This document shows positions 12,898 through 52,254 of a DNA stretch of 64,000 nt, in pieces. The DNA comes from a virus (Duplodnaviria; Caudoviricetes): IMG/VR virus record IMGVR_UViG_3300048503_000021, positions 1-64,000 of that record. One strand, written 5' to 3'. The first letter of the stretch is position 1. The number at the start of each line of letters is the position of its first letter. The notes below the pieces were generated by a model. That model was not told where the DNA came from. It worked only from the letters and a program-made list of their open reading frames with translations, and did not search any database. The position numbers and the translations under genes are program-made.

Positions 12898-12905
12898 GAG
12901 GAAAT

Positions 12906-22099: not shown

Positions 22100-22636
22100 A
22101 TGAAACTGAAACCGTTTCTGGCCGTACTCGCGGCGGCTGCCATGCTCACCCAAACCGGCTGCACTGGTTCCCAGATCCTAACCACCCTGGAGGGTAGCGT
22201 AGCGGCTACGGAGTTGCTGGTGGCGGCATTGGCCGCAAACAACACGATCCCCGCCGACATCGCAGGCCCGCTTGAGGGTGCGATTGCTGACGTTCCCGCT
22301 GCTTACACCCAGACCGCCGCAGAGATAGCGTCTTCGGACACAAACGCGATCAAGGCGCTGAAGATCACCGCGTACTTCGCTAATTCCCTTCAAGCGCTCA
22401 AAGTTCTGCCTCCTGCGGCCCAAGTGTATGCCGTCCCTGTGATAAATGCGATCAACGCTTTCTTAAACGAAATCAATCCGCCAGCGACGGCAGGGGCGTT
22501 CCAGCCTGCCTATCGCGGGACTGCGGTGTCCTTCCCCGCCACCGGCTGGGCTCACCAGATAGCGCGGCACCACCTTACCGACGTCAAGACCAGGGCGCTG
22601 AATCTTCAAATCGCCATCGACAACCTCAAGAAGTAG
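22100..22636 (+). CDS. Putative lipoprotein
   Basis: MKLKPFLAVLAAAAMLTQTGC lipobox-like. Confidence 0.65.
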   Translation: MKLKPFLAVLAAAAMLTQTGCTGSQILTTLEGSVAATELLVAALAANNTIPADIAGPLEGAIADVPAAYTQTAAEIASSDTNAIKALKITAYFANSLQALKVLPPAAQVYAVPVINAINAFLNEINPPATAGAFQPAYRGTAVSFPATGWAHQIARHHLTDVKTRALNLQIAIDNLKK

Positions 22637-30168: not shown

Positions 30169-30226
30169 GCTCAAATAGTAGAGCGTAGTGCCATAGCCGC
30201 CGATTTGGACTAACGAAGGATTGTCT

Positions 30227-31309
30227 ATGGCACTGCAATTAAGCGACCTCACTGCATTTACTGAGCAGTATATTGTGGAGAGGACGACTGATGTGATCTT
30301 CAAACAGTCGCCGCTCTTCACACGACTGCTCAATCGTCGGCGTATGCGCTTCTCCGGGGGCACATTCATCCAAAGGCCGATAATCTACAGCGAACTGAAC
30401 GGCGACTGGTTCTCGAAGGGCGACACCTTCAACATCAGCTACGTCACCACGGACACGGCCTTCACGGTCAACATGAAGACCAGCTACGTCAATGTCACGC
30501 TGTTTGGAATAGATGACGTTTTGAACCGTGGCCCGCAGGCAGCGTTCTCCATCGTGGAGTCCAAGTTCGCAAACGCCTCGATGAAGATGGCGAAACTGAT
30601 TGCGACTGGTCTGTACCAGGACGGTCAGAGTTCCGTATCGCCGCCTTTCACCGGAGCCCTGTCAGGCACCAAGTCGACGGACGGCTTGCTGGCTTGGGTT
30701 GACGACGGCAATTCCAGCGGCTCTTATTCGTCGGCCACCGACCAGACGAAGAGCTTCCTCTCCATTGGTGGTATCACCCGTACCGATCTGTTCGCGTCGG
30801 GCGCGTACAGCTTCACCAGCGGCATTACGCCTATCGCTGCGGTCGCTGGGGCCAACGCCTACACGATCCGTGGATACAGCGCGTACTCGCTGATCGACGT
30901 GAACACGGTCTACGGTGCTGCGTGGTTCGGCAACGACTACCCAGACCTGCTTGTTGGCACGCAGACGGCCTACAACAAGATATGGAACACCCTCCAGCCC
31001 CAACAGCGCTACAACGACGGTCAGAGCGACGTCGGCAAGGTGGGCTTCCAGGCGTTCCGGTTTAACGCCGCCGAAGTCGTCATCGACAAGTACATCCCCT
31101 CAGACGGCACCAACGGGCTGCTGCTCCTGCTCAACACGAACTACTTGGAACTGTACATCAGCGAGAACAAGAAGTTCCAGTTTGGGTTCACCGGCTTCAA
31201 GGAAGCACAAAACTCCATCGACATCGCCGGTCAGTTCCTCTTTGCTGGAAATCTGATTGTCCCGTCTCCTCGCTGCTGCGGGAAAATCGTAGGACCAGTG
31301 CTTCTCTAG
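30227..31309 (+). CDS. Major capsid protein (podovirus type)
   Basis: LTAFT...DVIFKQSPLF.RL...GGTFIQRPIIY; LYQDG; GF..FRFN..EVVIDKY; GNLIV..PR. Confidence 0.85.
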   Translation: MALQLSDLTAFTEQYIVERTTDVIFKQSPLFTRLLNRRRMRFSGGTFIQRPIIYSELNGDWFSKGDTFNISYVTTDTAFTVNMKTSYVNVTLFGIDDVLNRGPQAAFSIVESKFANASMKMAKLIATGLYQDGQSSVSPPFTGALSGTKSTDGLLAWVDDGNSSGSYSSATDQTKSFLSIGGITRTDLFASGAYSFTSGITPIAAVAGANAYTIRGYSAYSLIDVNTVYGAAWFGNDYPDLLVGTQTAYNKIWNTLQPQQRYNDGQSDVGKVGFQAFRFNAAEVVIDKYIPSDGTNGLLLLLNTNYLELYISENKKFQFGFTGFKEAQNSIDIAGQFLFAGNLIVPSPRCCGKIVGPVLL

Positions 31310-32914: not shown

Positions 32915-32965
32915 ATGGCGCGTCACAAGAAGGGCCGGAAGAAGGTTCGGAAGGAAGTTCGGTAG
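32915..32965 (+). CDS. 16-aa basic peptide MARHKKGRKKVRKEVR
   Basis: Strong SD AAAGGAGG; last gene before terminator. Confidence 0.6.
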   Translation: MARHKKGRKKVRKEVR

Positions 32966-32989
32966 GGCAAGGGCCGGTTTACTGGCTTG

Positions 32990-33027
32990 AGGGGCGGAGG
33001 GCGATTGCCCCTGCCCCTTTCGTCTTT
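32990..33027 (+). terminator. Putative intrinsic terminator of head operon
   Basis: AGGGGCGGAGGGC-GATT-GCCCCTGCCCCT followed by TTCGTCTTT. Confidence 0.6.
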
Positions 33028-33060
33028 GAGGAGTCTCGATCCAGACAAGGTAGTCTTATT

Positions 33061-35757
33061 ATGCGAACAGCAATTTTGTTTCTCTTAACGGCGCTGGGCT
33101 GTCTGGCGCAAGGCACCAGACCTGCGTCAGTTCGGCCCCCATGCTCCGCGACCGTCACGACGAATTGCACGCCGCAAGTGTCCGGAGCGGGAGCGTATGT
33201 CCCATACGTCGTGGGCGGCAGTGGTGCCAACCCACTCGGGTTGTTCGTTGTCGCCGGTGCCGCCAACGCGCCCGCCAATGCCGTGAATCTGGGACTGCTC
33301 TCCACGGGGCTGTTGAAGATTGTCGTGGCCGGCCAAATTGCCAGCTTCACGAACCCTTCCATCTCGGATCTGTTGTCACTCGGGAGCTGGCCGTGGGCTT
33401 CGCTGTCGGGAGTGCCAGCGAGCTTCACGCCCGCGCTGCATGCCGCGACGCATGGCAACGCGGGCAGCGATCGCGTTACGTTGGATTACAGCCAAATCAC
33501 CTCCGGCGCGCCGACGATCCCCGCGGCCTACTCCTCGAGCCCGGCCATGGACGGCAGCGCGTCAGCCGGGTCCAGCGGCAACTTCGCCCGCGGCGACCAT
33601 GTGCACCCCAGCGACACCAGCCGCGCACCCACGGCCAGCCCGACGTTCACAGGTACGGTAACAACGCCGATCACGGGCGGCGGCGTCCAGTGCACTCACG
33701 TCAACAATGCGGGTGTCCTCACCGGTACTGGGTCTGACTGCGGCACTGGCGGCGGCGGGGCCAACTCAGCCGGCTACTATCTGGTCAGCCAGGCGAGCAA
33801 TGAACCCGCCAACGCCGTCAACCTTGGCCTCCTGACTACGGGCCTGCTCAAGACGACCGTCGCGGGCAGCGTGGCGAGCTTCAGCACGGCCACCGCCGGC
33901 ACGGACTACATGGGCGCGTTCTCGTGGCCCGCGAACGGCTCCATCGTCAAAATGGTCAGCGGCGCACCCACGGCAGCCGTGGCGGGCACGGACTACGTCA
34001 CCCCTTCGGGTAGCATCACCGGCAACGCGGGCACGGCCACGGCCCTTGCCGCGCTTCCTACGGCCTGCTCGGCGGGGAACTATCCACTGGGCATCCTGGC
34101 GAATGGCAACGCTACGGGCTGTACGGCGGCCAACAGCGGGACAGTCACGCATTCAGCAGGGGCGCTGACGAACACTTACGTACTGGTCGGCAACGGCGGG
34201 GCGGACGCGAGCGTGTCGGCGGCCTATGTGGATGGGTCGAACATTCTCAACAATCCAGCCGGGTTCAAGAGCGGCGGAGCGGGGAGCGGATCTGTACAAC
34301 TCGGCGGCGCCACTTCGGGGGCGGTGACAGTCACGGCACAGGCCGCTGCGGGGACGTGGACACTCACACTTCCCAACACGCCAGGAACCAATGGGTATGC
34401 ACTGACGACGGACGGGAGCGGCAATGCGGCATGGGCGGCGATCCCTACGACCCTACCGCCGAATGGAACGGCGGGCGGCGATCTTGGTGGCACCTATCCT
34501 AATCCAAGTGTTTCGCAAATTGGCGGGGCGGTCTTGCCGGCGGCAGGGTCTATCACCAAGACCAACAGTAGCGGCCAACTTGTCGCGGCGACGGCGGGGA
34601 CCGATTACGTACTCCCCGCGGGCAGCATCACGGGTAATGCGTCGACGGCGACGGCGTTGGCATCCACGCCGACCACCTGTGCGGCCGGCAACTATCCGCT
34701 GGGGATCACTGCGAATGGCAACGTAACGGGCTGCACGGCGGCAACGGGTGGAGGCGGCACGATCACGGGCCCTGGCTCCGCGACATCGGGCTATGTGCCT
34801 CTGTGGGGCACGTACCCGGCGCTGACGTTGGGCCTGCCAGTCACGCAATCGAACGGCGCGAACTCGATTGTCGAGACGGGCGCGGGCGGCACTATCGCGG
34901 CGGCGGCGATCCCGACGCTCAACCAGAACACGACCGGATCGTCGGGCAGCGTGTTGAATGCCCTCACCCTCAACAACGGCGGCGCGGGCGCGGCCTCGGG
35001 TTCGACGTTCAATGGATCGGCGGCAATCACGCTCTCGTACAACACTCTCGGGGCAGCTCCGCTCGCCTCTCCGACCTTCACGGGGACTGTGACGATTCCC
35101 AGCGGCGCGTCCCTCGGCACGCCGACGACCCTCAATGTCTCGAATGCGACCGGCTTGACGGCCTCGCAAGTGCCCGCCGCGCTCTCCTCTACCACCTCGG
35201 TCAATGGCACGAGCATCCCAGCATCTTCCGCGCTGATGACTACCGGCACCACGCTCGCATCGGGACAGATGCCCACCTTCACGGGGGACGTCACGAACAG
35301 CGGTCTGGCTATGACCGTTGGCAAGGTGAACGGGGCAGCAGTCCCAACCAGCAAGAACTTTCTGGGCTCGAACGGCTCCGGCCAACTCGTCCAAACGACG
35401 AACGCGCGCGCCTTCGGCTACAGTTTCAACTCTTCGTCTGCGCTGACGACCGGCCTGACGGCCTACGGGAATGTCCCCTTCGCCTGCACCATCAGCGCAT
35501 GGACGATCAGCCTCTCGCCGGCCGACACCGCGACCGTGGACGTGTGGAAGGTGGCGACGGGTTCGGCAGTGCCGACCGTCTCTAACACCATCACCGCTTC
35601 GGCCGTCCCGGCCATCACCACCGGCACCTCGGTGCACTCGTCCACCCTGACCGGCTGGACGACTTCCGTGTCGGCCAACGATCTGTTCGCCGTCAACATC
35701 AAGGCGATTGGCGGAACGGCAACCTTCGTGAATTTGACAGTGGAGTGTGACCAATGA
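33061..35757 (+). CDS. Fibre-like Gly/Thr/Ala-rich repeat protein with signal peptide
   Basis: MRTAILFLLTALGCLAQ; duplicated ANAVNLGLL.TGLLK, AGTDYV.P.GSITGNA.TATALA, ASPTFTGTVT; ARGDHVHP. Confidence 0.8.
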   Translation: MRTAILFLLTALGCLAQGTRPASVRPPCSATVTTNCTPQVSGAGAYVPYVVGGSGANPLGLFVVAGAANAPANAVNLGLLSTGLLKIVVAGQIASFTNPSISDLLSLGSWPWASLSGVPASFTPALHAATHGNAGSDRVTLDYSQITSGAPTIPAAYSSSPAMDGSASAGSSGNFARGDHVHPSDTSRAPTASPTFTGTVTTPITGGGVQCTHVNNAGVLTGTGSDCGTGGGGANSAGYYLVSQASNEPANAVNLGLLTTGLLKTTVAGSVASFSTATAGTDYMGAFSWPANGSIVKMVSGAPTAAVAGTDYVTPSGSITGNAGTATALAALPTACSAGNYPLGILANGNATGCTAANSGTVTHSAGALTNTYVLVGNGGADASVSAAYVDGSNILNNPAGFKSGGAGSGSVQLGGATSGAVTVTAQAAAGTWTLTLPNTPGTNGYALTTDGSGNAAWAAIPTTLPPNGTAGGDLGGTYPNPSVSQIGGAVLPAAGSITKTNSSGQLVAATAGTDYVLPAGSITGNASTATALASTPTTCAAGNYPLGITANGNVTGCTAATGGGGTITGPGSATSGYVPLWGTYPALTLGLPVTQSNGANSIVETGAGGTIAAAAIPTLNQNTTGSSGSVLNALTLNNGGAGAASGSTFNGSAAITLSYNTLGAAPLASPTFTGTVTIPSGASLGTPTTLNVSNATGLTASQVPAALSSTTSVNGTSIPASSALMTTGTTLASGQMPTFTGDVTNSGLAMTVGKVNGAAVPTSKNFLGSNGSGQLVQTTNARAFGYSFNSSSALTTGLTAYGNVPFACTISAWTISLSPADTATVDVWKVATGSAVPTVSNTITASAVPAITTGTSVHSSTLTGWTTSVSANDLFAVNIKAIGGTATFVNLTVECDQ

Positions 35758-36269
35758 AAAAACTGCTTTTCTCTCTGATCTTGTTCGCCGGGCTGGCGGT
35801 CGCGCAAAGCGGCTTCAGCCTGTCCGGCACATTGAGCGCGGACGCCGTGACGAACCTCAACGCCTGGGCCACAACGCAGGTGCAGATGGCGGGCGCGGCC
35901 ACGGCCACCGCGGCCATCGGGGCCGGGGATACCACCATCACAGTCGCCAACTGCACCAATGTGGCGGCGGGCGTGACTGTGCTGATCGACGCTGAGGCGG
36001 TCTCGACATCGACCTGTAGCGGCAATACCTTGACGGTGGCTGCCAGTGGGCGCGGCTACTTCGCCACGGCGGCGGCGGCGCACCTCAGCGGCGTGCAGAT
36101 CGCAGTCTTGAAGTATGCCAGCCTGACGGCGGTGGGGAAGGCGGTGCTCCTCCAGGCGGTGCAGAACATCGCGCATCAGATGATGCTCGGGAACTACGCG
36201 ACGTACAAGGCGCAAGCGGCCACCACGCAGACCAATCAGGCGGCGTCCGACGCGGTGCTGGTGCAGTAA
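35754..36269 (+). CDS. Secreted hypothetical protein
   Basis: MKKLLFSLILFAGLAVAQ; LIDAE...RGY.AT.AAAH module. Confidence 0.7.
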   Translation: MKKLLFSLILFAGLAVAQSGFSLSGTLSADAVTNLNAWATTQVQMAGAATATAAIGAGDTTITVANCTNVAAGVTVLIDAEAVSTSTCSGNTLTVAASGRGYFATAAAAHLSGVQIAVLKYASLTAVGKAVLLQAVQNIAHQMMLGNYATYKAQAATTQTNQAASDAVLVQ

Positions 36270-36271
36270 CT

Positions 36272-37441
36272 ATGAGACGCCTTCTTCCTCTTCTCCTCCT
36301 TGCCCTCTCCGCTCCGGCGTGGGGCGCGTATACCTACAAAGCGACGATCACGCTGGCTCAGACAACGGGCAGTTCCGACCTGACCGATCGCACCAACATC
36401 GTCTATCTGAGCCACGCGTCCCTAAAGTTGGCAGGTAATGGCGGCCAGATCCAACATACCGTCAGCCGCAGCGGCCAGACCGTTCCGGCAGACCTGATAT
36501 TCACATCGGACTCCGGCGGATCTGTTGTGCTGAATTGGGGCATTGAGTCATACGACGGCTCATCGACCGGCGGCGTCGTCTGGGCACACGTCAAGAAGAC
36601 CACCTCGCACATCGGCACGACGGTCATCTATGCCTTCTGGGGCAACACGGCCATCAGCGCATTCCAAGGCGGCGCGGTAGGGTCGGAGTTCGACTCCTCC
36701 ACCATTCTCATGTCGCCGTTTCCGGGCATGACGGGAGGGTGTGCTGGCAACGTCACCTATCGCGACTTCACTTCTGCCGCGAATGATGGCACCTCGTCTT
36801 GTGACTACGGGTCGTCGAGTGGTGGCGTGGTGGGCGGTTACGCTTATGATTATTCGGCGACGTCTTTCCCCGCTTCGTCTGCCTACAATGTTACGACGGG
36901 GACCATCGCACTGTGGGTGAACCCACATACGGGTGACTGCTCTGGCGGAAGCGCCGGGCTGACTATGTTCGCTGGCGTGGGAAGTGACTACTATCTATCC
37001 AACGGATTCCTGCTCGGGTGCTCTCCGCTTAACGGCTACATAGCGGCAATGGCGGGATCTGGCGGGACCAATCCCATCTTCATGGGAACCTCTGTCGTGC
37101 CAGAGAATGCCTGGCATCATGTAGCCATGACGTTCACGAACGGTGGGACGAGTACGTTTTATTTTGACGGCGCGAGCGCGGGCACGTTCACGCCGACCAT
37201 TGGCTCTCCGGGTACGTCGGCCTTCAAAGTGGACGGCAATTTTTCTGTTGTCTCTGCCGGAAATGGAGGGTACGACAATATGTATTTCACGAACAATCTG
37301 CGTTCTGCCGATTGGATCGCCGCTGAGTATAACAACGGCCATGCGCCTTCCACTTTTGCCGCCGTCTCGGGGCTGGCGCCGTGCTCCGGTAGTTGCGGCG
37401 GTGGCGGGGGGGCACCGGTTAGTATGACGCCGATTTTTTGA
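36272..37441 (+). CDS. Secreted DUF2341-like + LamG/ConA-like lectin protein
   Basis: Signal peptide; DLIFT...WGIESYD...WAHV; GTIALWVNP, WHHVAMT, RSADWIAAEYNN. Confidence 0.8.
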   Translation: MRRLLPLLLLALSAPAWGAYTYKATITLAQTTGSSDLTDRTNIVYLSHASLKLAGNGGQIQHTVSRSGQTVPADLIFTSDSGGSVVLNWGIESYDGSSTGGVVWAHVKKTTSHIGTTVIYAFWGNTAISAFQGGAVGSEFDSSTILMSPFPGMTGGCAGNVTYRDFTSAANDGTSSCDYGSSSGGVVGGYAYDYSATSFPASSAYNVTTGTIALWVNPHTGDCSGGSAGLTMFAGVGSDYYLSNGFLLGCSPLNGYIAAMAGSGGTNPIFMGTSVVPENAWHHVAMTFTNGGTSTFYFDGASAGTFTPTIGSPGTSAFKVDGNFSVVSAGNGGYDNMYFTNNLRSADWIAAEYNNGHAPSTFAAVSGLAPCSGSCGGGGGAPVSMTPIF

Positions 37442-37533
37442 GGATTTGAATGTGTGCCTGAGAAGTGAAGAAAGGAAGGAGTTCGAGAAGTGATAACGAA
37501 TCTGAAAATAATGGGGTTCTTGGCACTGACCAT

Positions 37534-37791
37534 ATGACTCAAGCCCAGACTCTCGCCCTGGTGCGCCTCCGGCTCGATACCGTCAGGCCGCACGCGGTGC
37601 GGCGGGGACGCGGGCGCTGGGACGTGGAGCTGCCGCGGCTCAAGACCTACCGCCTCCAGGCGACGCCGCAGGAGCTGGCGCTCGCGCGCTGGTTCGGTTG
37701 CGGCATCGGGCCGCGGCCATCGCCGGAGAGTTCGCTCACGCTTTGGGACCGGGCGGCGCACGCGGACTATTTCGAGAAGGAGACAGAATGA
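37534..37791 (+). CDS. Hypothetical protein
   Basis: High GC3; ATGA overlap with next ORF. Confidence 0.5.
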   Translation: MTQAQTLALVRLRLDTVRPHAVRRGRGRWDVELPRLKTYRLQATPQELALARWFGCGIGPRPSPESSLTLWDRAAHADYFEKETE

Positions 37792-38045
37792 CGCGATGCA
37801 GTTTTCTGCTTGGCCTGCTCCCGATTGCCGCGTTGGCGCAAACCGCGCCGGCCGCTCCGGTGAATGGCCAGTGCCCCGTGTGTAAAACGCAGGCGCCGCC
37901 CTACACGACCGCCCAGCGGCTCGCGGCAGGGTATTGCACCAGCACGGACGGCGGACTTACGGTGGGCCTCTGCGAGTCTGCAAGTAGGGTCACCCGCTGC
38001 CTCGCCTGCAATGCCGCCTTCTGGCAGGACGTAGCGACATCGTGA
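37788..38045 (+). CDS. Small secreted Cys-rich protein
   Basis: MTRCSFLLGLLPIAALAQ; CPVC..C..C..CLAC. Confidence 0.6.
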   Translation: MTRCSFLLGLLPIAALAQTAPAAPVNGQCPVCKTQAPPYTTAQRLAAGYCTSTDGGLTVGLCESASRVTRCLACNAAFWQDVATS

Positions 38046-38052
38046 GCCTCCC

Positions 38053-38289
38053 ATGCCAGTCTCTGCCACCAGCACTCTCGTTCGAGCCTACATGGGAGAC
38101 GCACGCGCCATTGAGACGGTGTTTCGGCAGGCGCTGGGCCAACTCCGGCGCTACGACGGCTCTGGGCGCTGCTTTGCCTCGAAGGAGGAACGATTCACGT
38201 GGCGGGTCAGGCACGATCCCGACTGGACTGGTCCAGACCCTCAACCGGGGAATTGGTGGAGTAGAATTAACCAGATCGCCTTAGGGTAA
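38053..38289 (+). CDS. Hypothetical protein
   Basis: ORF in operon context. Confidence 0.4.
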   Translation: MPVSATSTLVRAYMGDARAIETVFRQALGQLRRYDGSGRCFASKEERFTWRVRHDPDWTGPDPQPGNWWSRINQIALG

Positions 38290-38343
38290 ACTGAAGGCGA
38301 AAAATGCTTTGCTGTGGGGCTCGATTCCAAATAAAGAGAGAGT

Positions 38344-39513
38344 ATGGCCCAATTTACAGAGACCCTACAGTCGATGCAGAACCGCGTGTGCAAGCAGCGC
38401 ATCGGCCTGGACCGGACTCTGGCCGTAGACTTCCTTAACGAGAGGTTGCGGCAAATACTCGACCGTAAGCCGGATTGGTCTAGTCTACTGAAGCGTAACC
38501 TTCTATCCATCCCGCAGGCATACTCTATTGGGACGATTGCGGTTACAACTGGGTCTACGCTCGTCGCGGGAACAGGCACAAATTGGCCTGTAGATGACGC
38601 AGTTAATACCCACATCCAGGAGCCACTACGGGCAGCTAGAACCGTTTGGGTCACTCCCGACAGCACTGTCGGCATCACGCCCAGCAGCCTGCTCTACGTG
38701 GACTCCGCAGGCCCTTACCCTGAGACTGTAGCCGTGTTGGACATGATGGCAGGGCGCATCCTGTGCGCCTTTCAATTCCCGCACGAGGCGAACTTCACAG
38801 CGACAGCAAGCTCTCTCGTCAATCTTCAGTTGCGTGTCAATTCAATTAACCCAATTTTCACCGTGCAGGCGGTAACGAGCCCCACGAGTCTGTATCTAGA
38901 CAATCCGTGGGGACAGGTTGGCGCTGCGGGGATGGCCTATCAGATTTTGCTAGCCTATACGCCTTTTGCGGGGGACGTGAAAGAACTGGTTGTCGTTGTG
39001 GATAATTTCCAGCAAATCGCGCTCCGGTTGCAGGTATCTCAGGAAGAACTCAACCTGTACGACCCGAACCGAACGGCGACTGATTCTCCCAACTGTATTG
39101 CCAATTTGGGGCCGAACCTCAACGGCCAGCAAATGTACGAGATTTATCCTCCACCGTCAATCCCGTACCAGCTTTCTTACCTTTACCATGCCCGTTGGAA
39201 GGGGATGAGGCTCCCAGACGATACTCCTCCTGCGGGAATCAACCCCAATGCCCTCATATATGGGGCTCTGGCAGATGCCTTTGCTACGCCTTGCCCTCGC
39301 CCTCCAGACATGAAGGATGCGTTCTTCAGCCTGGAAACGGCGAATATGTACCAATCTCGGTTCGAGCAGGCCGTCATCGAACTTATGACTTCCGAAGAGA
39401 GCACATACCAGAAGGCCTTTACTTGGAATTTCGCTCAAACTTGGGGAGGAATGGGAATGGGTGCGAACTGGGAGCAATCGCACTCGTGGGAAGCGGCGGC
39501 TGGAGATTACTAA
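38344..39513 (+). CDS. Head-tail adaptor/ring protein 1 with inserted beta modules
   Basis: DFLNERL...W; IYPPP...L.Y.Y...DD.P...ALIYGALA. Confidence 0.65.
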   Translation: MAQFTETLQSMQNRVCKQRIGLDRTLAVDFLNERLRQILDRKPDWSSLLKRNLLSIPQAYSIGTIAVTTGSTLVAGTGTNWPVDDAVNTHIQEPLRAARTVWVTPDSTVGITPSSLLYVDSAGPYPETVAVLDMMAGRILCAFQFPHEANFTATASSLVNLQLRVNSINPIFTVQAVTSPTSLYLDNPWGQVGAAGMAYQILLAYTPFAGDVKELVVVVDNFQQIALRLQVSQEELNLYDPNRTATDSPNCIANLGPNLNGQQMYEIYPPPSIPYQLSYLYHARWKGMRLPDDTPPAGINPNALIYGALADAFATPCPRPPDMKDAFFSLETANMYQSRFEQAVIELMTSEESTYQKAFTWNFAQTWGGMGMGANWEQSHSWEAAAGDY

Positions 39514-39514
39514 T

Positions 39515-42001
39515 ATGAAACACTTTCCTTTCCCTGTCTTGATTGCTTTCTCTCTCTTCACGGCGAAAGCTCAGACCATCCCCCAGCCTCTCCAAGTGGT
39601 TAGGGTCTACAACGTCACAAGCGCCTCTCAGGTGTTCGACAACCGCTCTACGGCGGCTATGGGCTGCAACTACTTCAGTTACTACGTGAACAGCAACGTA
39701 GGGGCCTATACGATCCAGTTGGAGTACAGCGACGTGAGCAGGACTGGGCCGTGGACGCCATTCCCCACAAGCCAGATCACCAACACGTCCTTTGTCCCAA
39801 TTGGCGTCGGCAACGGGTATCACAATTGGGTGCGCCTCAACACGCTTTCAGGTAGCACGTCTTCAACGCTCTCCTGCTCCAAGGACTACTTCATCACCTC
39901 TTCGGCTTCCTCTATCAGCGCCATAGCGGACCCTGGCCTAAACTGCATTCCCTACCGCAGCGGGGCAGGAGAGGCGCGATGCGTGGTTGTCTCTGACATT
40001 GCAAACCTCTTTGGGTCGCTGGCCGAACACTATGTTTACGCTGCTCCAGAAAATGCGAACGGTTTGCCTTCTTTCCGTCAAATGTATGCCGACGACATCA
40101 GCTTTACACAAACAGGGGCAGGGGCCGTCGCTAGTACGGTAGACGCCAAGCTCAGAGAAACAATTAGCGTTAAGGACTTCGGGGCCAAAGGAGATGGCGT
40201 GACCGACGATACCGCGGCTATCCAGGCGGCGCTGACGGCGGCTGGCACTAGTTGTGGGCTGGTTTACTTCCCTCACGGCACGTACATGATGAGCGTGACG
40301 GCGGGCAGTCTCACGGGCACGGTGATTCCGAGCTGCGTGGAAATGGCGGGCGAATCCAACACCGGGGCGGTCATCAAGCTCAAGAGCGCGGCATTCAATG
40401 GCGAATGGTTCAGCTCTAACGGGACGCATAACATCACCATCCGCGATCTGACGTTCGACGGGGCGAACGCGCCGATTAACAGCGGCTATGGCACGGTAAC
40501 GACAAACGGAACGGCGGTCACTCTCGTAACGGGCACCCCGTTCTATACAGACGGGACGTGGGCGGGGCTGCCGTTCGTCATCAACTACGTTTACTATACA
40601 ATCGCCTCCGTGACAGACAGCTCTCACCTGGTGCTCACCGCGACCGCTGGGGTGCAATCCTCCGCCGTCACATACTTCAGCGTGGGGCTCTTTTACCAAG
40701 TGATCGGAATGGTCAATGCCTCCTACGTCACGATCAGGGACTGCCGATTCGTCAACGTCTTTCCCACGCTGGTGGTCGCCTTCTACGGCGGGGCCGGATT
40801 TATCACCCTGGACCACAACTACATCGAGACCACGGCGGCCAGCGGGAACCAGAACGAAGGGTTCAACATCAGCACCGGCGGCCCTTACGCGATGAACGGA
40901 GTACGTGTCACAAATAACACCCTCGTCCATACCGGTATGGACATCAACACCTACGGGGCGCATGTGGAGGGCAACGACATCAGCGGGTGGGGATATGGCG
41001 CTGGGATCACCACAGAAGAAAGCGCCCTGTGCGGGTACAACCTAATCTCCAGAAACATGCTCGTTAGCTCGACCGGGATCGACACTAATGCAACCCGTCC
41101 CAACGCGATTGAGGACTGGGCGTCTTACGATAGGATCACCGAGAACTTCGTAAGCGGAATGTCGGGAGACGGCATCGATGCGGGCGGCCCCAATACCCTG
41201 ATCGCCAACAACATAACAATCGACAACGGCTCTAGCGCTCCGGGAGCAGGGTGCGGTATATCGGCGCGCTACGGGAATGACACGTACCAGTGCAGCTACT
41301 GCACCTTCACTGGGAACGTGTCCCTTGATACAAATTCCAACCTAGCTCTGGGGACTCAAGGTTACGGATTCTGCATCCAGGCCAGCCCTAGCGGCACGCT
41401 TCCGACTCATGTCTTTGTCACGCCGGACAACAACTTCAACCACAATATGGAGAACCCGACGAATACGGTATTAGCCCAAGGTACGGTGACTACCAACCAC
41501 AACATAATCACCTGGGCTTCCGGCTCGCCGTTTGTAACAAGTGGCCCATGGTTTAACGGGATGACAATTGTCATAAATAATGTGGCCTACTCCATCGGCA
41601 ACGTAGGCTCCGCCACGGCGCTGGCCGTGAATGAAGACAGCGGGGTCCAGGCCACCGCCGTACCCTACTACGTGCCGGCATTCGATCAGACCAAGGCCGT
41701 CTGGGCGCTTTCCCAGGGCGTCCCTCCTTCGTTCCCCTACTGCGTCGCCTGGACCCCCGGTACAATCGCCGCCGGTGCCACGGCATCTGTCCAGGAGACT
41801 GTCCCCGGAGCGCAAATGGGGTCCACGATTGCGCCACCCAGTTTCTCCCTGAACGCGGGCGGCGTGCTGTTCTACGGGTACGTATACACCCCCAATGCCA
41901 TCACCTTCGTGGCCTACAATCTCTCCGGTGCGTCGCAGACCTTGGCCGCCGGACAGATTTGCACGACCGTGACCATGCCTCTCGGCTATAGCAACTACTA
42001 G
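39515..42001 (+). CDS. Tailspike-like pectate-lyase-3 beta-helix protein with signal peptide
   Basis: MKHFPFPVLIAFSLFTAKAQ; AVASTVDAKLRETISVKDFGAKGDGVTDDTAAIQAA; VYFPHGTY. Confidence 0.85.
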   Translation: MKHFPFPVLIAFSLFTAKAQTIPQPLQVVRVYNVTSASQVFDNRSTAAMGCNYFSYYVNSNVGAYTIQLEYSDVSRTGPWTPFPTSQITNTSFVPIGVGNGYHNWVRLNTLSGSTSSTLSCSKDYFITSSASSISAIADPGLNCIPYRSGAGEARCVVVSDIANLFGSLAEHYVYAAPENANGLPSFRQMYADDISFTQTGAGAVASTVDAKLRETISVKDFGAKGDGVTDDTAAIQAALTAAGTSCGLVYFPHGTYMMSVTAGSLTGTVIPSCVEMAGESNTGAVIKLKSAAFNGEWFSSNGTHNITIRDLTFDGANAPINSGYGTVTTNGTAVTLVTGTPFYTDGTWAGLPFVINYVYYTIASVTDSSHLVLTATAGVQSSAVTYFSVGLFYQVIGMVNASYVTIRDCRFVNVFPTLVVAFYGGAGFITLDHNYIETTAASGNQNEGFNISTGGPYAMNGVRVTNNTLVHTGMDINTYGAHVEGNDISGWGYGAGITTEESALCGYNLISRNMLVSSTGIDTNATRPNAIEDWASYDRITENFVSGMSGDGIDAGGPNTLIANNITIDNGSSAPGAGCGISARYGNDTYQCSYCTFTGNVSLDTNSNLALGTQGYGFCIQASPSGTLPTHVFVTPDNNFNHNMENPTNTVLAQGTVTTNHNIITWASGSPFVTSGPWFNGMTIVINNVAYSIGNVGSATALAVNEDSGVQATAVPYYVPAFDQTKAVWALSQGVPPSFPYCVAWTPGTIAAGATASVQETVPGAQMGSTIAPPSFSLNAGGVLFYGYVYTPNAITFVAYNLSGASQTLAAGQICTTVTMPLGYSNY

Positions 42002-42026: not shown

Positions 42027-42542
42027 ATGCCAGAACAAAGCATCTCGGAACTAACCACACGCCTATCCGTGATAGAAGCAGCAGAGAAGCGAGAACATGC
42101 TGCCTTGCAATGCCAGTTTGGGCTAAAACTTTCAGCACTCCAGGCGGAGTTTCTGTTGCGACTTGAATCTGCCTCGCGAGCCCTTGAACTGGCACGAACC
42201 GAACTAAGCAGGCGGCTGGAGTCGTTGAACAACGAAGCGGAACGGGTAAAGAAAATCCAGGACACATACGCACTCCGCGAGGTCGTGGAAAACAACTTCA
42301 AAGAGATTCGCTTAATTATTGAATCTCAGACCCGAGAGACACGCAGTTACCTTGACCAGCGAGTAGATAAGGTGTGGTCGTCCTGCGAGGCGGAGTTCAA
42401 GGATGTTCAGAAAGCCGTCAAGGAACTGAACGATTTCCGTAACAACTTTCTTGGCAAGCAGGCTGTTGTCGCCTTCTGTATCGCGTCGGTGGTCTCTCTC
42501 GCCCTGCGCTATCTGATCCCCATTAGAGGAGCAACCCCGTGA
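42027..42542 (+). CDS. Coiled-coil protein with C-terminal TM segment
   Basis: RRLESLN; AVVAFCIASVVSLAL. Confidence 0.65.
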   Translation: MPEQSISELTTRLSVIEAAEKREHAALQCQFGLKLSALQAEFLLRLESASRALELARTELSRRLESLNNEAERVKKIQDTYALREVVENNFKEIRLIIESQTRETRSYLDQRVDKVWSSCEAEFKDVQKAVKELNDFRNNFLGKQAVVAFCIASVVSLALRYLIPIRGATP

Positions 42543-42626
42543 TGCCACCTGACGGCCAAGACCAGCCCGACAAGGTGGAAGTAATTCGGCGGGTCTTCGG
42601 CCCGCTTGATTGGAGAAAACAAATTG

Positions 42627-42917
42627 ATGCCAGATAACGCTTACAAGACGGAGCCATCCACTATTAAATGGGGCCTAAATCCTGGACAGATTATTACGAT
42701 CATCGTCCTGGTAGTAGGCATGGCTGCCTCTTGGGGTAGTCTCTCTCAGCAGATTGCTACGCACACCGAAATGCTCGGCAGGATGTCGGTAGACCAAGCC
42801 ACTATGGGCCGTGACCTCCTCGGATTGCGGGAAGAACAGGCGCGCGTTCGCGGCAAACTGGAAGAGCATGATCGTGAAGATTCCGCGTGGCGCGCGGCTC
42901 ATCGTCAAGACAGATAA
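42627..42917 (+). CDS. N-terminal TM plus coiled-coil protein (lysis-associated?)
   Basis: GQIITIIVLVVGMAASW. Confidence 0.6.
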   Translation: MPDNAYKTEPSTIKWGLNPGQIITIIVLVVGMAASWGSLSQQIATHTEMLGRMSVDQATMGRDLLGLREEQARVRGKLEEHDREDSAWRAAHRQDR

Positions 42918-43269: not shown

Positions 43270-43923
43270 GTGCCGCTTGTTACGCTTGGGAGTCTTATCG
43301 GCCGGGTGTACACACGCCTTGATAATAATGGCCTACTCTACCCTCGTCCGGAGATTGTCAATGCCATTAACGAAGCGGTCCAGGTCGTCAACCTCTCCAC
43401 GGGGTTCATCCAAGGCACTTTCCAGATTCCAGGGTGGTCTCAGGTCAACCGAGTCTGGTACGACACCCCCGCTCAGATCATCATTCCCCTGCGCGTCACG
43501 TTCGAGGGCATGTACCTTCAACCGACGACGCTTTGGCAACTGGGCGCTTCTTATCCCAATTGGACGGCAGACACAACCAGCAGTGTGGGGCTTCCTGTTT
43601 CCTATTGGGTCCCGTGTGGTCTGACGAAGTTCGGGATCTACCCCGCTGATTCCCTTGGTGGCTGTGACATCAGGGTAACTGGAGTGATGGAGCCGGTCCC
43701 ATTGGTGGCCGATACGGACATCCTCAATCTCCCCAACGAGTACGCCAGCGCCGTTGATTTTCTGGCGGCACATACCCTCATGCTGAAGGAATCCTCAACC
43801 ATCTTTGCACACGGATCGACGGACTATCAGAAGTACCTGTCCGTCAACAAGAAGATGACAATTTGGAAGGGGTTGACGCAACCGCGCTACTTCTTACCGG
43901 AAGCCCAGCAGGCTAAAACATGA
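43270..43923 (+). CDS. Head-tail adaptor/ring protein 2
   Basis: RVYTRLD...EIVNAINEA; FGIYP; LPNEY. Confidence 0.65.
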   Translation: MPLVTLGSLIGRVYTRLDNNGLLYPRPEIVNAINEAVQVVNLSTGFIQGTFQIPGWSQVNRVWYDTPAQIIIPLRVTFEGMYLQPTTLWQLGASYPNWTADTTSSVGLPVSYWVPCGLTKFGIYPADSLGGCDIRVTGVMEPVPLVADTDILNLPNEYASAVDFLAAHTLMLKESSTIFAHGSTDYQKYLSVNKKMTIWKGLTQPRYFLPEAQQAKT

Positions 43924-44441
43924 CAGATGAATTCCAAGCAAAGCTGATCGCCATGCTCTCTACCCATGAGGGCCGCAAAGCATGGATGTATCCCGATACA
44001 GCAGGGAACGTCACCGTGGGGGTAGGGCACATGATCCCCTCGCCCGATGCCGCAACGCAGTTAGGGTTCTCAGACGCCAATCTTGAGACGGCTTCAGAGG
44101 AGGATGTCGTCAACGGATGGGGCTTTGTCAAATCCAGCAACCAGGAATACAAGGCACTGACGCTATCAGACAGCAAAATCAACAATCTCCTAATGGGGGA
44201 TGTGGCTCACTTCTACCTTGTCTTGATCCAGACTTTCCCAAAGTTTAAGTCTTATCCTGAGTCAGCCCAATTGGGCCTCTACGACATGGTATTCAACCTA
44301 GGAAGCTTTCGGGCTTTTCCTAGATTTGCGGCGGCTGTGCTGCAACAGAATTGGGCATCGGCGGCGGCAGAATGCCAGCGTGAAGGCATTGGAGCCGCCC
44401 GCAATCAGGATACGAAGAATCTTTTCCTGGAGTGCGCATGA
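43920..44441 (+). CDS. Lysozyme (GH24-like)
   Basis: HEG...YPDTAGNVTVGVGH; DMVFNLG; NWASAAAE; ARN. Confidence 0.85.
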   Translation: MTDEFQAKLIAMLSTHEGRKAWMYPDTAGNVTVGVGHMIPSPDAATQLGFSDANLETASEEDVVNGWGFVKSSNQEYKALTLSDSKINNLLMGDVAHFYLVLIQTFPKFKSYPESAQLGLYDMVFNLGSFRAFPRFAAAVLQQNWASAAAECQREGIGAARNQDTKNLFLECA

Positions 44442-45286
44442 GCACGTCGAACCCATACGTCGAGATCTTTCAAACTCGGCTCACGTCGGACCTCTACGCT
44501 ATCTACAAACAATGCTCCAATGTTTTGCTTGAAGATGGAGGTCTTACTTTAGGGCTGATTACAGATAGTGAGTTCTACGCTATCGCCAATGAGGTTGTAA
44601 CGGACTTCTTGAGTAAGACTCAGATCATCAAAAAAGTATTCTGCGTCCCATTATTGGTCGGCGTGGACACATACACGAAGCCCGATCAACTGGGGGAGAT
44701 TGACGAAGCGCTTGCGGGGCAGACGCACATCAACCGGACGAGCGGGTTCTATTTGGACAATTCCGACCCTTCGTGGCCGACGCAGTTCAACCAGCCACAG
44801 TCCTTCAAGGAAGATGAAGTCCCAGTCAATCAGATCCAACTAAGCCCTATGCCAAACGTGGAAGGAGAGTTGACGTACACCTACGATCAGGGCTATGGCG
44901 TGCCCGCCTCTACGTCTGGCGCGGTTGACTTCGACATCCAGGCCAATCCGTCTACCCCTGGTTACGGGGTGTTTGCCGAAGCCATTGGGAATCCATATTT
45001 AGAAGCAGCCGGGACTGGTTACGGGGTGTATGCCGACATGGTATGCTCCACTGGGAATCTGACGATGATTGGGAATGTCATCCCGACCGATCCGACGTAT
45101 ATTCAGCTAATCCCCGCTTCGTTCCAGTGCTACTTGAAGTATGGGATACTCTCCAGGATCTTTTCTACAAACAGCGAATTGAAAGACGAACAGAAAGCCA
45201 CCTATTGCCAAGCGCGGTATGCTGAAGGTGTGAACTTAGCAGGAGCAATTATGGCCAACATCTACACGGAGCAAGCCAATGCCTGA
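44438..45286 (+). CDS. Head-tail adaptor/ring protein 3
   Basis: ANEVVTDFL.KT; IQLSP.P; IPASFQCYLKYG.L. Confidence 0.6.
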   Translation: MSTSNPYVEIFQTRLTSDLYAIYKQCSNVLLEDGGLTLGLITDSEFYAIANEVVTDFLSKTQIIKKVFCVPLLVGVDTYTKPDQLGEIDEALAGQTHINRTSGFYLDNSDPSWPTQFNQPQSFKEDEVPVNQIQLSPMPNVEGELTYTYDQGYGVPASTSGAVDFDIQANPSTPGYGVFAEAIGNPYLEAAGTGYGVYADMVCSTGNLTMIGNVIPTDPTYIQLIPASFQCYLKYGILSRIFSTNSELKDEQKATYCQARYAEGVNLAGAIMANIYTEQANA

Positions 45287-51612: not shown

Positions 51613-52254
51613 GTGGCAAATACGAGCGGCTACGCAGAGTTAAAAACATCGGACCTCCAGGACGAAACCCTCTTCGCCCTGAATCAGAGGATGCGCTATC
51701 TATACCAGAAGGTGTCTGGCGTTTACGGACAAAACTCCCCCAATCTGCTCTCGTCCCCTACGCTGGCAACAGCCTACTCTTCACAGCAGACGGCCCAGAA
51801 TGTATCCCCAAACGAGTTCATCACGAACGCGGTTGCCAATAAGCTCTACGGGATAGCAGCTATCCAGGCGGCAATCAATAGCGGCAAGCTTCAGGTTGGT
51901 GGGCCGAACGGCCAACAGGTAGCGCAGGCGGCGCTTTTCACGATCATCACCCTAGCGCAGCTTCCTACGGCTGGGACGCTGGCTACAAATGCCGACAATG
52001 CCGGGATGACGTTCTTCATCAGCGACTACTACCACTGGCTAGAGTTCAACGGGACGGGGTATCAGTGGCACCCGTGGGAGTCGGACGGGTCGGCCTATTA
52101 CCGGCTGGCGGATGCTCCCCCCAATTGGGGCAGATGGGCTTCGGTCAGCGGCGGAGGGACAGCCGCCTTCCTGCAATCTAACGGGACGTTGGGGTTGGCC
52201 ACTATGGCAACAGTGACAGCGGGATTCTTTACGGGAGTGTGGTTCCGCCAATGA
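51613..52254 (+). CDS. Putative tail protein
   Basis: Position after nozzle; GTG start with SD GAGG. Confidence 0.55.
   Translation: MANTSGYAELKTSDLQDETLFALNQRMRYLYQKVSGVYGQNSPNLLSSPTLATAYSSQQTAQNVSPNEFITNAVANKLYGIAAIQAAINSGKLQVGGPNGQQVAQAALFTIITLAQLPTAGTLATNADNAGMTFFISDYYHWLEFNGTGYQWHPWESDGSAYYRLADAPPNWGRWASVSGGGTAAFLQSNGTLGLATMATVTAGFFTGVWFRQ

What the first reader, a model, noticed from the sequence alone, without database searches (positions are those of the whole stretch)
33061..42001. Virion fibre, lectin and tailspike-like genes carry Sec signal peptides and paired cysteines
Seen: five genes in the structural region begin with classic signal peptides ending near A-Q or G-A (33061, 35754, 36272, 37788, 39515). 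They include an 898-aa fibre-like protein and a beta-helix tailspike with the usual SVKDFGAKGDG motif. Their Cys residues often occur as nearby pairs (CSATVTTNC, CTHV...SDC, CSAGNYP...TGC twice, CIPY...RC). Known: tailed virions assemble in the reducing cytoplasm and their fibres normally lack signal peptides, whereas disulfides form in the periplasm. Inference: either appendages are exported, oxidatively folded and attached to particles during or after lysis (extracytoplasmic virion maturation), or the phage decorates the host surface with adhesins or depolymerases. The signal-peptide style is reminiscent of Acidobacteriota proteins (weak inference).
Basis: partly seen in the sequence, partly recalled or inferred. 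Interest (0 to 1): 0.75.

Follow-up and report, generated by a model that had tools for sequence, protein, structure and literature searches.

The report
Phage fibre/spike-like genes with export signals
In a 96-kb short-tailed phage of soil Acidobacteriota, five fibre-, lectin- and sugar-cutting-type genes in the structural gene block start with genuine-looking secretion signals, so these proteins most likely fold outside the cytoplasm; whether they ever join the virus particle is open.

Summary
Genes at 33061, 35754, 36272, 37788 and 39515 start with a basic residue, a 10-12-residue hydrophobic core and a small-x-small site, four of them followed by Gln. That is 5 of 6 consecutive genes against 2 of about 104 elsewhere (Fisher p 1e-6). 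The mature proteins have 10, 2, 6, 6 and 14 cysteines.

The signals are conserved while the cargo is swapped. Related phages share the upstream DNA and the signal codons of the first gene, and identity collapses just after the predicted cleavage site. The jelly-roll domain that follows the spike's signal defines a family of about 120 clusters; 85 of 87 full-length members carry a presequence, 84 with [AGS]-Q.

The fibre's central module is 74-88% identical to secreted proteins inside chromosomal exopolysaccharide loci of Bryobacteraceae/Terriglobia. The cultured Acidobacteriota podophage Tunturi_2 has the same layout.

Best reading (about 0.5): a late, Sec-exported cassette of glycan-binding and glycan-cutting proteins that act on the host envelope or exopolysaccharide and are released at lysis, not virion parts. 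Rival (about 0.2): true virion appendages that join particles after export. No trained signal-peptide predictor or proteomics was available. This scan has noted the same pattern on other phage genomes. I found no description of it in print.

The parts
32915..32965 (+). Tiny basic ORF (16 aa) with an AAGGAGG ribosome site, conserved in relatives upstream of the first signal-peptide gene
   Evidence: function unknown
32999..33016 (+). GC-rich hairpin followed by a T-rich run (terminator-like), conserved in L004/L005
   Evidence: consensus match only
33033..33046 (+). 14-bp motif GTCTCGATCCAGAC in the leader of the fibre gene
   Evidence: copy of the dispersed motif noted by earlier readers
33061..35757 (+). 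898-aa fibre-like protein. Signal peptide is codons 1-16 (33061-33108). There are 10 mature Cys in five near pairs. The central module, residues 300-560, is 74-88% identical to secreted Terriglobia proteins. The C-terminus matches phrog_35197.
35754..36269 (+). 171-aa protein of unknown function; signal peptide 35754-35804; 2 Cys
36272..37441 (+). 389-aa lectin-type protein. Laminin_G_3/ConA-like at residues 198-350, with a weak DUF2341 match. Signal peptide 36272-36325; 6 Cys. The homologue in L005 keeps the signal.
37788..38045 (+). 85-aa Cys-rich small protein (6 mature Cys, including two CxxC); signal peptide 37788-37838; strong ribosome site
38344..39513 (+). 389-aa protein without a signal, probably a head-tail adaptor paralogue. 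Conserved in L006, L020 and L027, and weakly similar to Tunturi_2 gp11 'tail protein'.
39515..42001 (+). 828-aa spike-like enzyme. Signal peptide 39515-39571. Conserved jelly-roll N-domain 39572-39919. Right-handed beta-helix from about residue 215, plus a C-terminal beta domain. 14 Cys.
42027..42542 (+). 171-aa coiled-coil protein with a C-terminal membrane helix; candidate lysis-associated protein
   Evidence: topology only
42606..42917 (+). 103-aa protein with one membrane helix; candidate holin or spanin-type protein
   Evidence: topology only
43270..43923 (+). SU10-type head-tail adaptor, a true virion gene with no signal
   Evidence: PF24175, E 4.5e-9, above cut-off
43920..44441 (+). Phage lysozyme-type endolysin, no signal
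22100..22636 (+). 178-aa lipoprotein-like protein (presequence ending T-G-C), the only other exported-type protein in the window; homologue in L028

Best explanation
The five genes form a late-expressed cassette of exported proteins, not parts built into the particle in the cytoplasm. The inferred steps are these. The host Sec machinery exports the proteins and signal peptidase I cuts them, mostly leaving Gln at +1. They fold in the oxidising periplasm with disulfides. They include glycan binders (fibre, LamG lectin) and a glycan-cutting or glycan-modifying beta-helix enzyme. They act on the host's exopolysaccharide, capsule or envelope during infection. At lysis they are released as free, stable enzymes and binders that clear matrix around progeny and neighbouring cells. 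The cargo is exchanged by recombination just behind a conserved signal-peptide 'handle'. Modules are shared both with host secreted proteins of exopolysaccharide loci and with ordinary signal-less phage fibres and spikes. Shown here: the signals, their conservation, the cargo swapping, the cysteine pattern, the folds and the host-locus homologues. Inferred: export itself, the substrate, the timing and absence from virions.
For: (1) The N-termini are canonical and tightly clustered. (2) The signals are conserved as a feature while sequence and cargo change. Window, L004 and L005 share about 160 bp upstream plus the signal codons of the 33061 gene, then diverge completely, so the mature N-termini in this slot share no docking domain. 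P0124 keeps the mature N-domain at 80% identity behind a different signal. 85 of 87 full-length members of the N-domain family carry a presequence. (3) All five mature proteins have even cysteine counts, while core virion proteins are Cys-poor: 0 in 599 aa and 1 in 2886 aa. SP-bearing fibre homologues are richer in Cys than SP-less ones, p 0.004. (4) Fibre residues 300-560 are 74-88% identical to signal-bearing proteins of Bryobacteraceae/Terriglobia. These sit in chromosomal loci with an initiating glycosyltransferase, Wzz/Wzc, Wza, NusG-like and further glycosyltransferase genes. That matches exported, tailspike-like WceF of Pantoea (PMC7949094). (5) The cargo is heterogeneous (lectin, 85-aa Cys-rich protein, 171-aa unknown), unlike a set of virion parts. 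(6) The spike's N-domain is an 8-strand jelly roll. Its best solved matches are YomS (Z 9.9) and XepA (Z 9.7). XepA is a late PBSX protein reported as exported and absent from particles. (7) The phage deploys other exported proteins: a PEP-CTERM protein and a lipoprotein-like protein. (8) Signal-less candidates for real fibres exist. The 51613 product keeps its first 79 residues but swaps its C-terminus in L028. The post-capsid families 31339, 32029 and 32523 vary in copy number. (9) The beta-helix resembles secreted exopolysaccharide-acting enzymes (AlgE4/6, RbmB) as well as tailspikes.
Against: The genes sit inside the structural block, between the capsid gene, adaptor paralogues and the nozzle, in several phage lineages including cultured Tunturi_2. 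The spike's N-domain diverges at the same rate as core tail proteins: 54% between window and L028, against 53-62% for nozzle and adaptors. It carries hypervariable C-termini, which is the classic signature of a virion anchor domain. The N-domain was not found in 401 sampled genomes of the host phylum, so it appears phage-specific. Pfam found no depolymerase-type domain in the signal-less proteins that were scanned, which include the large tail proteins at 45522, 49559 and 53497. The 2886-aa protein (55299) was scanned only with PHROGs, and many small ORFs were not scanned at all. C-terminal parts of both large proteins have signal-less, phage-type relatives. How periplasmic proteins would reach exopolysaccharide before lysis is unexplained. 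The YomS/XepA match stands only about 1.7 Z units above generic jelly rolls.
Confidence: 0.5

Rival explanations
1. They are the phage's true host-recognition appendages. They are exported by Sec, cut, folded oxidatively in the periplasm, and bound to DNA-filled particles only when lysis mixes the two compartments. This would be an extracytoplasmic step in tailed-phage assembly.
For: The genes sit in the tail/structural block next to adaptor paralogues, in the window, L006, L027, L028 and Tunturi_2. The N-domain is phage-restricted, as conserved as core tail proteins, and carries hypervariable enzyme or fibre C-termini. No depolymerase-type Pfam domain was found in the signal-less proteins scanned. 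The C-terminal modules have relatives in ordinary signal-less fibres and spikes. From general knowledge, tailspike-less P22 heads can be completed in vitro, so late attachment is chemically possible.
Against: No tailed phage is known to assemble this way. Proteins in the first slot share only the signal, not a mature N-terminal anchor. The cassette includes a lectin and small Cys-rich proteins that are unlikely virion parts. The closest sequence relatives of the fibre module are host exopolysaccharide-locus proteins. WceF shows that a tailspike-like build with an N-terminal head domain does not imply a virion. Dilution at lysis would make attachment inefficient. Earlier checks in this scan priced this reading at 9-30% on other DNA.
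Confidence: 0.2
2. The proteins are displayed on the surface of the infected (or lysogenic) cell. There they act as adhesins or receptor-destroying or receptor-masking factors, for example for superinfection exclusion or to stop progeny re-adsorbing. This resembles the Bdellovibrio MAT fibres, which have a conserved beta-rich domain right after the signal peptide.
For: The build is the same as in MAT fibres: signal, a conserved beta domain of about 115-130 aa, then a variable fibre or tip. The phage also encodes a PEP-CTERM surface-sorting protein. The 33061 presequence also fits a loose lipobox (A-L-G-C). Porphyromonas phage genes with Q-rule signals have been read as envelope modifiers (PMC10367356).
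Against: No outer-membrane anchor, autotransporter, PEP-CTERM or clear lipobox was found on four of the five proteins. Homology to the MAT N-domain was not tested because no Bdellovibrio sequence was at hand. No integrase was looked for, so lysogeny is unknown. The genes lie in the late structural block, which is an odd place for exclusion genes.
Confidence: 0.15
3. The hydrophobic N-termini are not used for export. Possible causes are wrong start codons, uncleaved N-terminal helices that serve assembly in the cytoplasm, or relics of host-derived genes.
For: No trained predictor or experiment was available. GC3 of the five genes (0.68-0.87) is above the backbone (0.54-0.67), which suggests foreign origin.
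Against: Ribosome sites sit before the ATGs that open the presequences. No homologue starts downstream of the hydrophobic segment except evident fragments. The presequence persists across about 120 clusters at 50% identity while its own sequence drifts, and 84 of 87 keep the [AGS]-Q site. Even, elevated cysteine counts fit oxidative folding.
Confidence: 0.05

Closest known systems
Pantoea stewartii WceF (PMC7949094)
   Same: An exported protein with a right-handed beta-helix and a tailspike-like build that includes an N-terminal head domain. It acts on the cell's own exopolysaccharide. The host homologues of the fibre module likewise lie inside Wza/Wzc-type exopolysaccharide loci.
   Different: WceF is bacterial and chromosomal and uses a Tat signal. 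The proteins here are phage-encoded, use Sec-type signals, are Cys-rich and sit in a phage structural block. No sequence homology to WceF was shown.
PBSX XepA / SPbeta YomS (PDB 6i56, 6i5o; PMC6834076)
   Same: These are the best solved fold matches of the spike's N-domain (Z 9.7-9.9, rmsd 2.2-2.3 A over 91-95 residues). XepA is a late phage protein encoded between tail and lysis genes, reported as exported and absent from mature particles.
   Different: Sequence identity is about 12%, and the fold is a common jelly roll. XepA is a pentameric two-domain protein of a Gram-positive host without an enzyme domain. Its function is itself unsettled.
Bdellovibrio MAT (mosaic adhesive trimer) fibres (PMC10769870)
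   Same: [quoted passage not shown] The proteins are exported and surface-exposed.
   Different: They are encoded by a predatory bacterium, not a phage. Homology of the N-domains was not tested here.
Canonical podovirus tailspikes and fibres (P22 gp9, HK620, Sf6, LKA1 gp49, T7 gp17)
   Same: The beta-helix fold, the SVKDFGAxGDG start motif, a modular conserved N-part with a swapped C-part, and a position in the tail gene block.
   Different: Those proteins have no signal peptide and fold in the cytoplasm. Their N-terminal particle-binding domains were not matched by the N-domain here.
Tunturiibacter phages Tunturi 1 and 2 (PP887698.1, PP885685.1; PMC11924767)
   Same: Cultured podophages of Acidobacteriota, and the only GenBank phage relatives of the nozzle-like protein. 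Tunturi_2 has a tail protein followed by gp12, gp13, gp14, gp16 and gp17. All five have signal-like N-termini and many cysteines, and lysis genes follow.
   Different: Similarity is only distant (24.5% over the nozzle), and the exported proteins are not homologous by BLAST. The paper does not mention signal peptides or virion proteomics.
Porphyromonas phage genes with Q-rule signal peptides (PMC10367356)
   Same: Phage genes with SPase I signals that expose Gln at +1, read as adapted to host secretion and as envelope modifiers.
   Different: Different phylum. Those were unknown-function genes, capsid genes and spanins, and no fibre or spike-type proteins were named.

Membership tests
Sec-type (SPase I) signal peptide | Basic n-region, hydrophobic h-region of about 7-15 residues, small residues at -3 and -1 | tested here: met
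   All five meet it: K/R within the first 5 residues, mean Kyte-Doolittle 2.4-2.8 over 10 residues, and A/C at -3 with A/G at -1
Sec-type (SPase I) signal peptide | Kept in homologues as a feature while its sequence drifts; no homologue starts downstream of it | tested here: met
   85 of 87 members have a presequence and 84 of 87 have [AGS]-Q. Exceptions are fragments.
Sec-type (SPase I) signal peptide | Positive call by a trained predictor (SignalP 6) and experimental export or cleavage | not testable with these tools
   No such predictor or experiment was available
Virion tailspike (P22 gp9 type) | Right-handed parallel beta-helix with carbohydrate-active cleft | tested here: met
   PF12708 at E 9.6e-19. 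The AlphaFold model (mean pLDDT 70) matches the Dettilon, HK620, phi297 and LKA1 spikes, and equally AlgE4/6
Virion tailspike (P22 gp9 type) | N-terminal particle-binding domain related to known ones | tested here: inconclusive
   The N-domain is a jelly roll closest to YomS/XepA, cement proteins and TNF/C1q-like heads. No known spike anchor was among the listed matches
Virion tailspike (P22 gp9 type) | Made and folded in the cytoplasm (no export signal) | tested here: not met
   A 19-aa cleavable-type presequence is conserved across the family
Virion tailspike (P22 gp9 type) | Present in purified particles | not testable with these tools
   Needs proteomics of a cultured relative
WceF-like exported exopolysaccharide-modifying enzymes | Export signal plus beta-helix | tested here: met
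   the signal is Sec-type, not Tat
WceF-like exported exopolysaccharide-modifying enzymes | Encoded within an exopolysaccharide biosynthesis or export cluster | tested here: not met
   The phage genes lie in a phage structural block. Only the host homologues of the fibre module (L010, L014) lie in such clusters
XepA/YomS lysis-cassette proteins | C2-like or jelly-roll beta sandwich fold | tested here: met
   Z 9.9 and 9.7, rmsd 2.2-2.3 A, 91-95 residues aligned, 11-12% identity
XepA/YomS lysis-cassette proteins | Sequence homology; pentameric assembly; encoded next to holin and endolysin | tested here: inconclusive
   No sequence match was found and the oligomer state is untestable. The next genes are two membrane-helix proteins, and the lysozyme gene lies 1.9 kb downstream
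Concanavalin A-like lectin/glucanase (Laminin_G_3, PF13385) | Pfam match above gathering score | tested here: met
   36272 product, residues 198-350: 48.4 bits against a cut-off of 27.6
SU10-type head-tail adaptor (PF24175) | Pfam match above gathering score | tested here: met
   The 43270 product scores 37.5 bits against a cut-off of 27. For 38344 the only support is an Atlas feature match of 0.97 to a cluster in which 37% carry the family; this second case is inconclusive
PEP-CTERM exosortase substrates | C-terminal PEP motif, membrane helix and basic tail, plus N-terminal signal | tested here: met
   Gene at 76557-77165 (minus strand) of the record: TIGR02595 scores 17.8 bits against a cut-off of 16

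The most novel reading that the evidence does not exclude
In this phage and many other Acidobacteriota podophages, including cultured Tunturi 1 and 2, the host-recognition proteins of the virion are themselves exported by Sec. They are trimmed to a +1 Gln, folded with disulfides in the periplasm, and dock through the conserved jelly-roll N-domain onto adaptor paralogues only when lysis brings them together with DNA-filled particles. Part of tailed-phage assembly would then be extracytoplasmic.
Probability: 0.2. Interest if true: 0.9.

Novelty: new variant of a known kind. Interest (0 to 1): 0.6.

Why it matters
Tailed phages are taught to build their whole particle in the cytoplasm, and fibre and spike genes are annotated as virion parts from position and fold alone. 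In this lineage every depolymerase- or fibre-like gene in the structural block carries a conserved export signal.

If these are free exported enzymes, soil phages of exopolysaccharide-rich hosts carry a sizeable secretome that remodels the matrix. Such genes are then being mis-annotated as tail fibres or as 'auxiliary metabolic' carbohydrate enzymes. If instead they are virion parts, the assembly pathway has an unrecognised periplasmic branch.

Either answer is directly testable, because cultured relatives with the same layout exist (Tunturi 1 and 2 on Tunturiibacter psychrotolerans). The strong +1 Gln preference also suggests a 'Q rule' outside Bacteroidota.

Tried and rejected
1. Sequence searches of the fibre, lectin and spike N-domain against solved structures gave nothing. 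The full-length spike matched only over the start of its beta-helix, residues about 192-327.

2. Pfam at E up to 5 gave nothing for the spike N-domain, the 171-aa protein or the fibre ends.

3. I suspected from memory that the large signal-bearing proteins of L005 and L006 start with heparinase-like domains. Pfam did not confirm this; it found only He_PIG, BACON_2 and weak beta-helix hits. I dropped the claim.

4. The Atlas search on spike residues 1-160 scored 0.80 or less and was uninformative.

5. The word-based search for longer homologues of the N-domain found only close relatives and no named proteins.

6. The N-domain and the fibre have no match in GenBank phages.

7. The N-domain gave no match in 401 sampled genomes of the host phylum. 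This was a single-protein query, so it means 'not found', not 'absent'.

8. Cysteine enrichment in SP-bearing versus SP-less beta-helix homologues was not significant, p 0.2.

9. The promoter/terminator scan gave no more sites than shuffled sequence.

10. Four literature searches found no description of export signals on tailed-phage fibres or spikes. The library is incomplete.

11. Homology to the Bdellovibrio MAT N-domain could not be tested, because no sequence reference was available.

12. Disulfide geometry could not be checked, because model coordinates are not returned.
Full report
**What the record is.** The window is the first 64 kb of a 96,253-bp IMG/VR virus record judged 96% complete. 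All genes of the window lie on the + strand. They include:
- a large terminase (18195),
- a portal of SU10/P22 type (26394),
- a tRNA-Lys,
- a scaffold-like gene,
- a major head protein (30221, phrog_9953, E 3e-23),
- an SU10-type adaptor (43270, PF24175 above cut-off),
- a phage lysozyme (43920),
- a 1342-aa nozzle-like protein (45522) and a 2886-aa protein.

The capsid is distantly like those of Myxococcus phages Mx8/Mx9. The nozzle-like protein has its only GenBank phage relatives in the cultured Acidobacteriota podophages Tunturi 1 and 2, at 24.5% identity. It is therefore a novel podovirus-like phage.

**The observation.** The ORFs at 33061, 35754, 36272, 37788 and 39515 begin with one or two basic residues, a hydrophobic core and a small-x-small site. 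Four of the five are followed by Gln. Ribosome sites precede these ATGs. The upstream TTG/GTG extensions at 37698 and 39461 are not needed.

A crude scan of every ORF in the record flags only two more. One is a lipoprotein-like protein at 22100. The other is a 202-aa protein on the other arm (76557-77165, minus strand) that is a PEP-CTERM protein by TIGR02595. Five of six consecutive genes against two of 104 gives Fisher p 1e-6.

The mature proteins hold 10, 2, 6, 6 and 14 cysteines, all even numbers and mostly in near pairs. Core virion proteins are Cys-poor: the 599-aa protein has 0 and the 2886-aa protein has 1.

**Are the signals functional?** Three lines of comparison say they are selected as signals.

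First, relatives found through the capsid gene keep signal-bearing genes in the same slot with different cargo. At the DNA level, window, L004 and L005 are nearly identical through 160 bp of leader and the signal codons of the 33061 gene. Identity collapses right after the codons for C-L-[AG]-Q-G. The signal belongs to the conserved backbone and the cargo is swapped behind it.

Second, the spike is modular. Residues 1-162 recur with other C-termini (P0123, 751 aa; P0124, 1364 aa). In P0124 the mature part is 80% identical but the signal has a different sequence of the same kind.

Third, an exhaustive profile-free search with mature residues 20-200 found 127 cluster representatives. In 87 of them the conserved DNR motif lies far enough from the start to judge. 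Of these, 85 have a hydrophobic presequence (median 24 aa) and 84 have [AGS]-Q in the c-region. The exceptions are fragments.

**What the proteins are.**
- *The 898-aa protein* is a Gly/Ala/Thr-rich fibre with repeated modules. Its C-terminus matches phrog_35197.
- *The 389-aa protein* has a ConA-like Laminin_G_3 domain above cut-off and a weak DUF2341 match.
- *The 828-aa protein* has a PF12708 beta-helix. The model of residues 200-828 (mean pLDDT 70) matches secreted alginate epimerases AlgE4/6 best in compactness (TM 0.70 on the target). It also matches many phage tailspikes and the Vibrio matrix lyase RbmB.
- *The spike's N-domain*, folded with a 43-row alignment, is a confident 8-strand jelly roll (block-mean pLDDT 82-98 over residues 1-110). 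Against 48,161 chains the best matches are YomS (Z 9.9) and XepA (Z 9.7). Next come a phage cement protein, Ena pilins, BclA and TNF/C1q heads at Z 8.1 or below.

According to PMC6834076, XepA appears late, is exported beyond the membrane and is not in mature particles. The gap to the generic matches is modest, so I treat this as a lead.

**Where the relatives live.** Fibre residues 300-560 are 74-88% identical to signal-bearing proteins of Bryobacteraceae/Terriglobia metagenome-assembled genomes. In two long contigs these proteins (1375 aa, fibre plus beta-helix) sit with other signal-bearing beta-helix proteins inside chromosomal exopolysaccharide loci. Those loci hold an initiating glycosyltransferase, Wzz/Wzc, Wza, a NusG-like gene and several glycosyltransferases. 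This is the WceF situation: an exported, tailspike-like enzyme of an exopolysaccharide cluster (PMC7949094).

The same fibre modules also occur in signal-less, phage-type fibres. Within this fibre superfamily, signal-bearing members are richer in cysteine: median 1.14% against 0.30%, p 0.004. No such difference holds for beta-helix homologues.

By contrast, the spike's N-domain family was found only in phage-like contexts:
- L027, a close relative;
- L028, a 50-60% identical relative in which the gene sits directly before the nozzle gene;
- L029;
- L030/L031, a different phage of about 100 kb with five signal-bearing genes in a row.

The N-domain was not found in 401 sampled genomes of the host phylum.

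The GC3 of the five genes (0.68-0.87) exceeds that of the tail backbone (0.54-0.67) and resembles host loci, though the capsid gene is also high.

**A cultured parallel.** In Tunturi_2, a 'tail protein' (gp11) is weakly similar to the 38344 product (E 0.004). It is followed by gp12 (1191 aa, 20 Cys), gp13 (676 aa, 10 Cys), gp14 ('pectin lyase'), gp16 and gp17 (1281 aa, 34 Cys). All five have signal-like N-termini, and the lysis genes follow. The paper describing these phages mentions neither signal peptides nor virion mass spectrometry.

**Weighing the readings.** Export and oxidative folding are well supported but indirect. The fate of the proteins is not resolved.

For free exported proteins:
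- the host exopolysaccharide-locus relatives;
- swapping of cargo directly behind the signal, with no shared mature anchor in the first slot;
- the mixed cargo (lectin, small Cys-rich protein);
- the XepA-like fold;
- the phage's other exported proteins;
- signal-less candidates for true fibres.

For virion parts:
- the position among adaptor paralogues and the nozzle in several lineages;
- a phage-restricted N-domain that evolves at the pace of core tail proteins and carries hypervariable C-termini;
- no depolymerase-type Pfam domain in the signal-less proteins that were scanned (the 2886-aa protein and many small ORFs were not scanned with Pfam).

I put about 0.5 on the exported cassette, 0.2 on post-export virion attachment, 0.15 on surface display and 0.05 on unused signals.

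**Prior knowledge.** Known pieces are:
- exported late phage proteins (XepA);
- Sec-exported endolysins;
- free phage depolymerases;
- bacterial exported tailspike-like enzymes (WceF);
- signal-bearing mosaic fibres with a conserved beta domain after the signal (Bdellovibrio MATs, PMC10769870);
- Q-rule signals on Porphyromonas phage genes (PMC10367356).

I found no paper describing export signals on the fibre/spike-type genes of tailed phages.

This scan has already noted the same pattern on several other phage genomes. Later checks there priced the bold virion reading at 9-30%. My estimate was formed on the evidence above and falls in that range.

Noticed in passing
L005:9351-9974, L006:9308-9952, L008:10351-10932: In three relatives the major head protein gene is split by an inserted LAGLIDADG-type ORF, as an intron or intein-like insertion. 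The window's capsid gene (30221-31309) is uninterrupted.
   Followed up: no
G000 76557-77165, minus strand (outside the window; L033:558-1166): The phage encodes a 202-aa protein with an N-terminal signal and a C-terminal PEP-CTERM sorting signal (TIGR02595 above cut-off). This implies a host with an exosortase system.
   Followed up: partly
window 38344-39513, 43270-43923, 44432-45286: There appear to be three adaptor-like paralogues: one clear SU10_adaptor, one weak Pfam match, and one matched only by Atlas features. Variable genes lie behind them: the signal-bearing spike directly behind the first, and the endolysin behind the second (replaced by a signal-bearing 432-aa ORF in L027). The third (44432) is followed by a conserved 78-aa gene and then the nozzle here; in L028 a signal-bearing N-domain gene is inserted between those two.
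   Followed up: partly
window 32915-33046: A conserved leader lies before the first exported gene. It holds a 16-aa very basic mini-ORF with a strong ribosome site, a terminator-like hairpin, and a copy of the dispersed 14-bp motif GTCTNNATCCAGAC.
   Followed up: partly
family of P0241-P0364; host proteins in L010, L011, L014: There is a strong preference for Gln at the predicted +1 position (84 of 87 family members, and also host secreted proteins). It is reminiscent of the 'Bacteroidetes Q rule' but occurs in Acidobacteriota-linked sequences.
   Followed up: partly
window 37788-38045: The 85-aa exported protein has two CxxC pairs about 40 residues apart plus two further Cys. It could be zinc-ribbon-like or a small disulfide knot. 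No family match was found.
   Followed up: no
window 51613-52254 versus L028:16052-17251: The first 79 residues are conserved (49% identity) but the rest is replaced by a longer, unrelated C-terminus in the relative. This is the pattern expected of a real, signal-less tail fibre.
   Followed up: no
window 22100-22636 and L028:2410-2919: A conserved lipoprotein-like gene lies upstream of the portal region (50% identity between the two phages). In L028 it sits near a GH19 endolysin and a signal-bearing 115-aa protein, so it may be spanin-related.
   Followed up: no
window 12837-13739: The product matches the FkbM-family methyltransferase domain (TIGR01444, E 6.7e-14).
   Followed up: no
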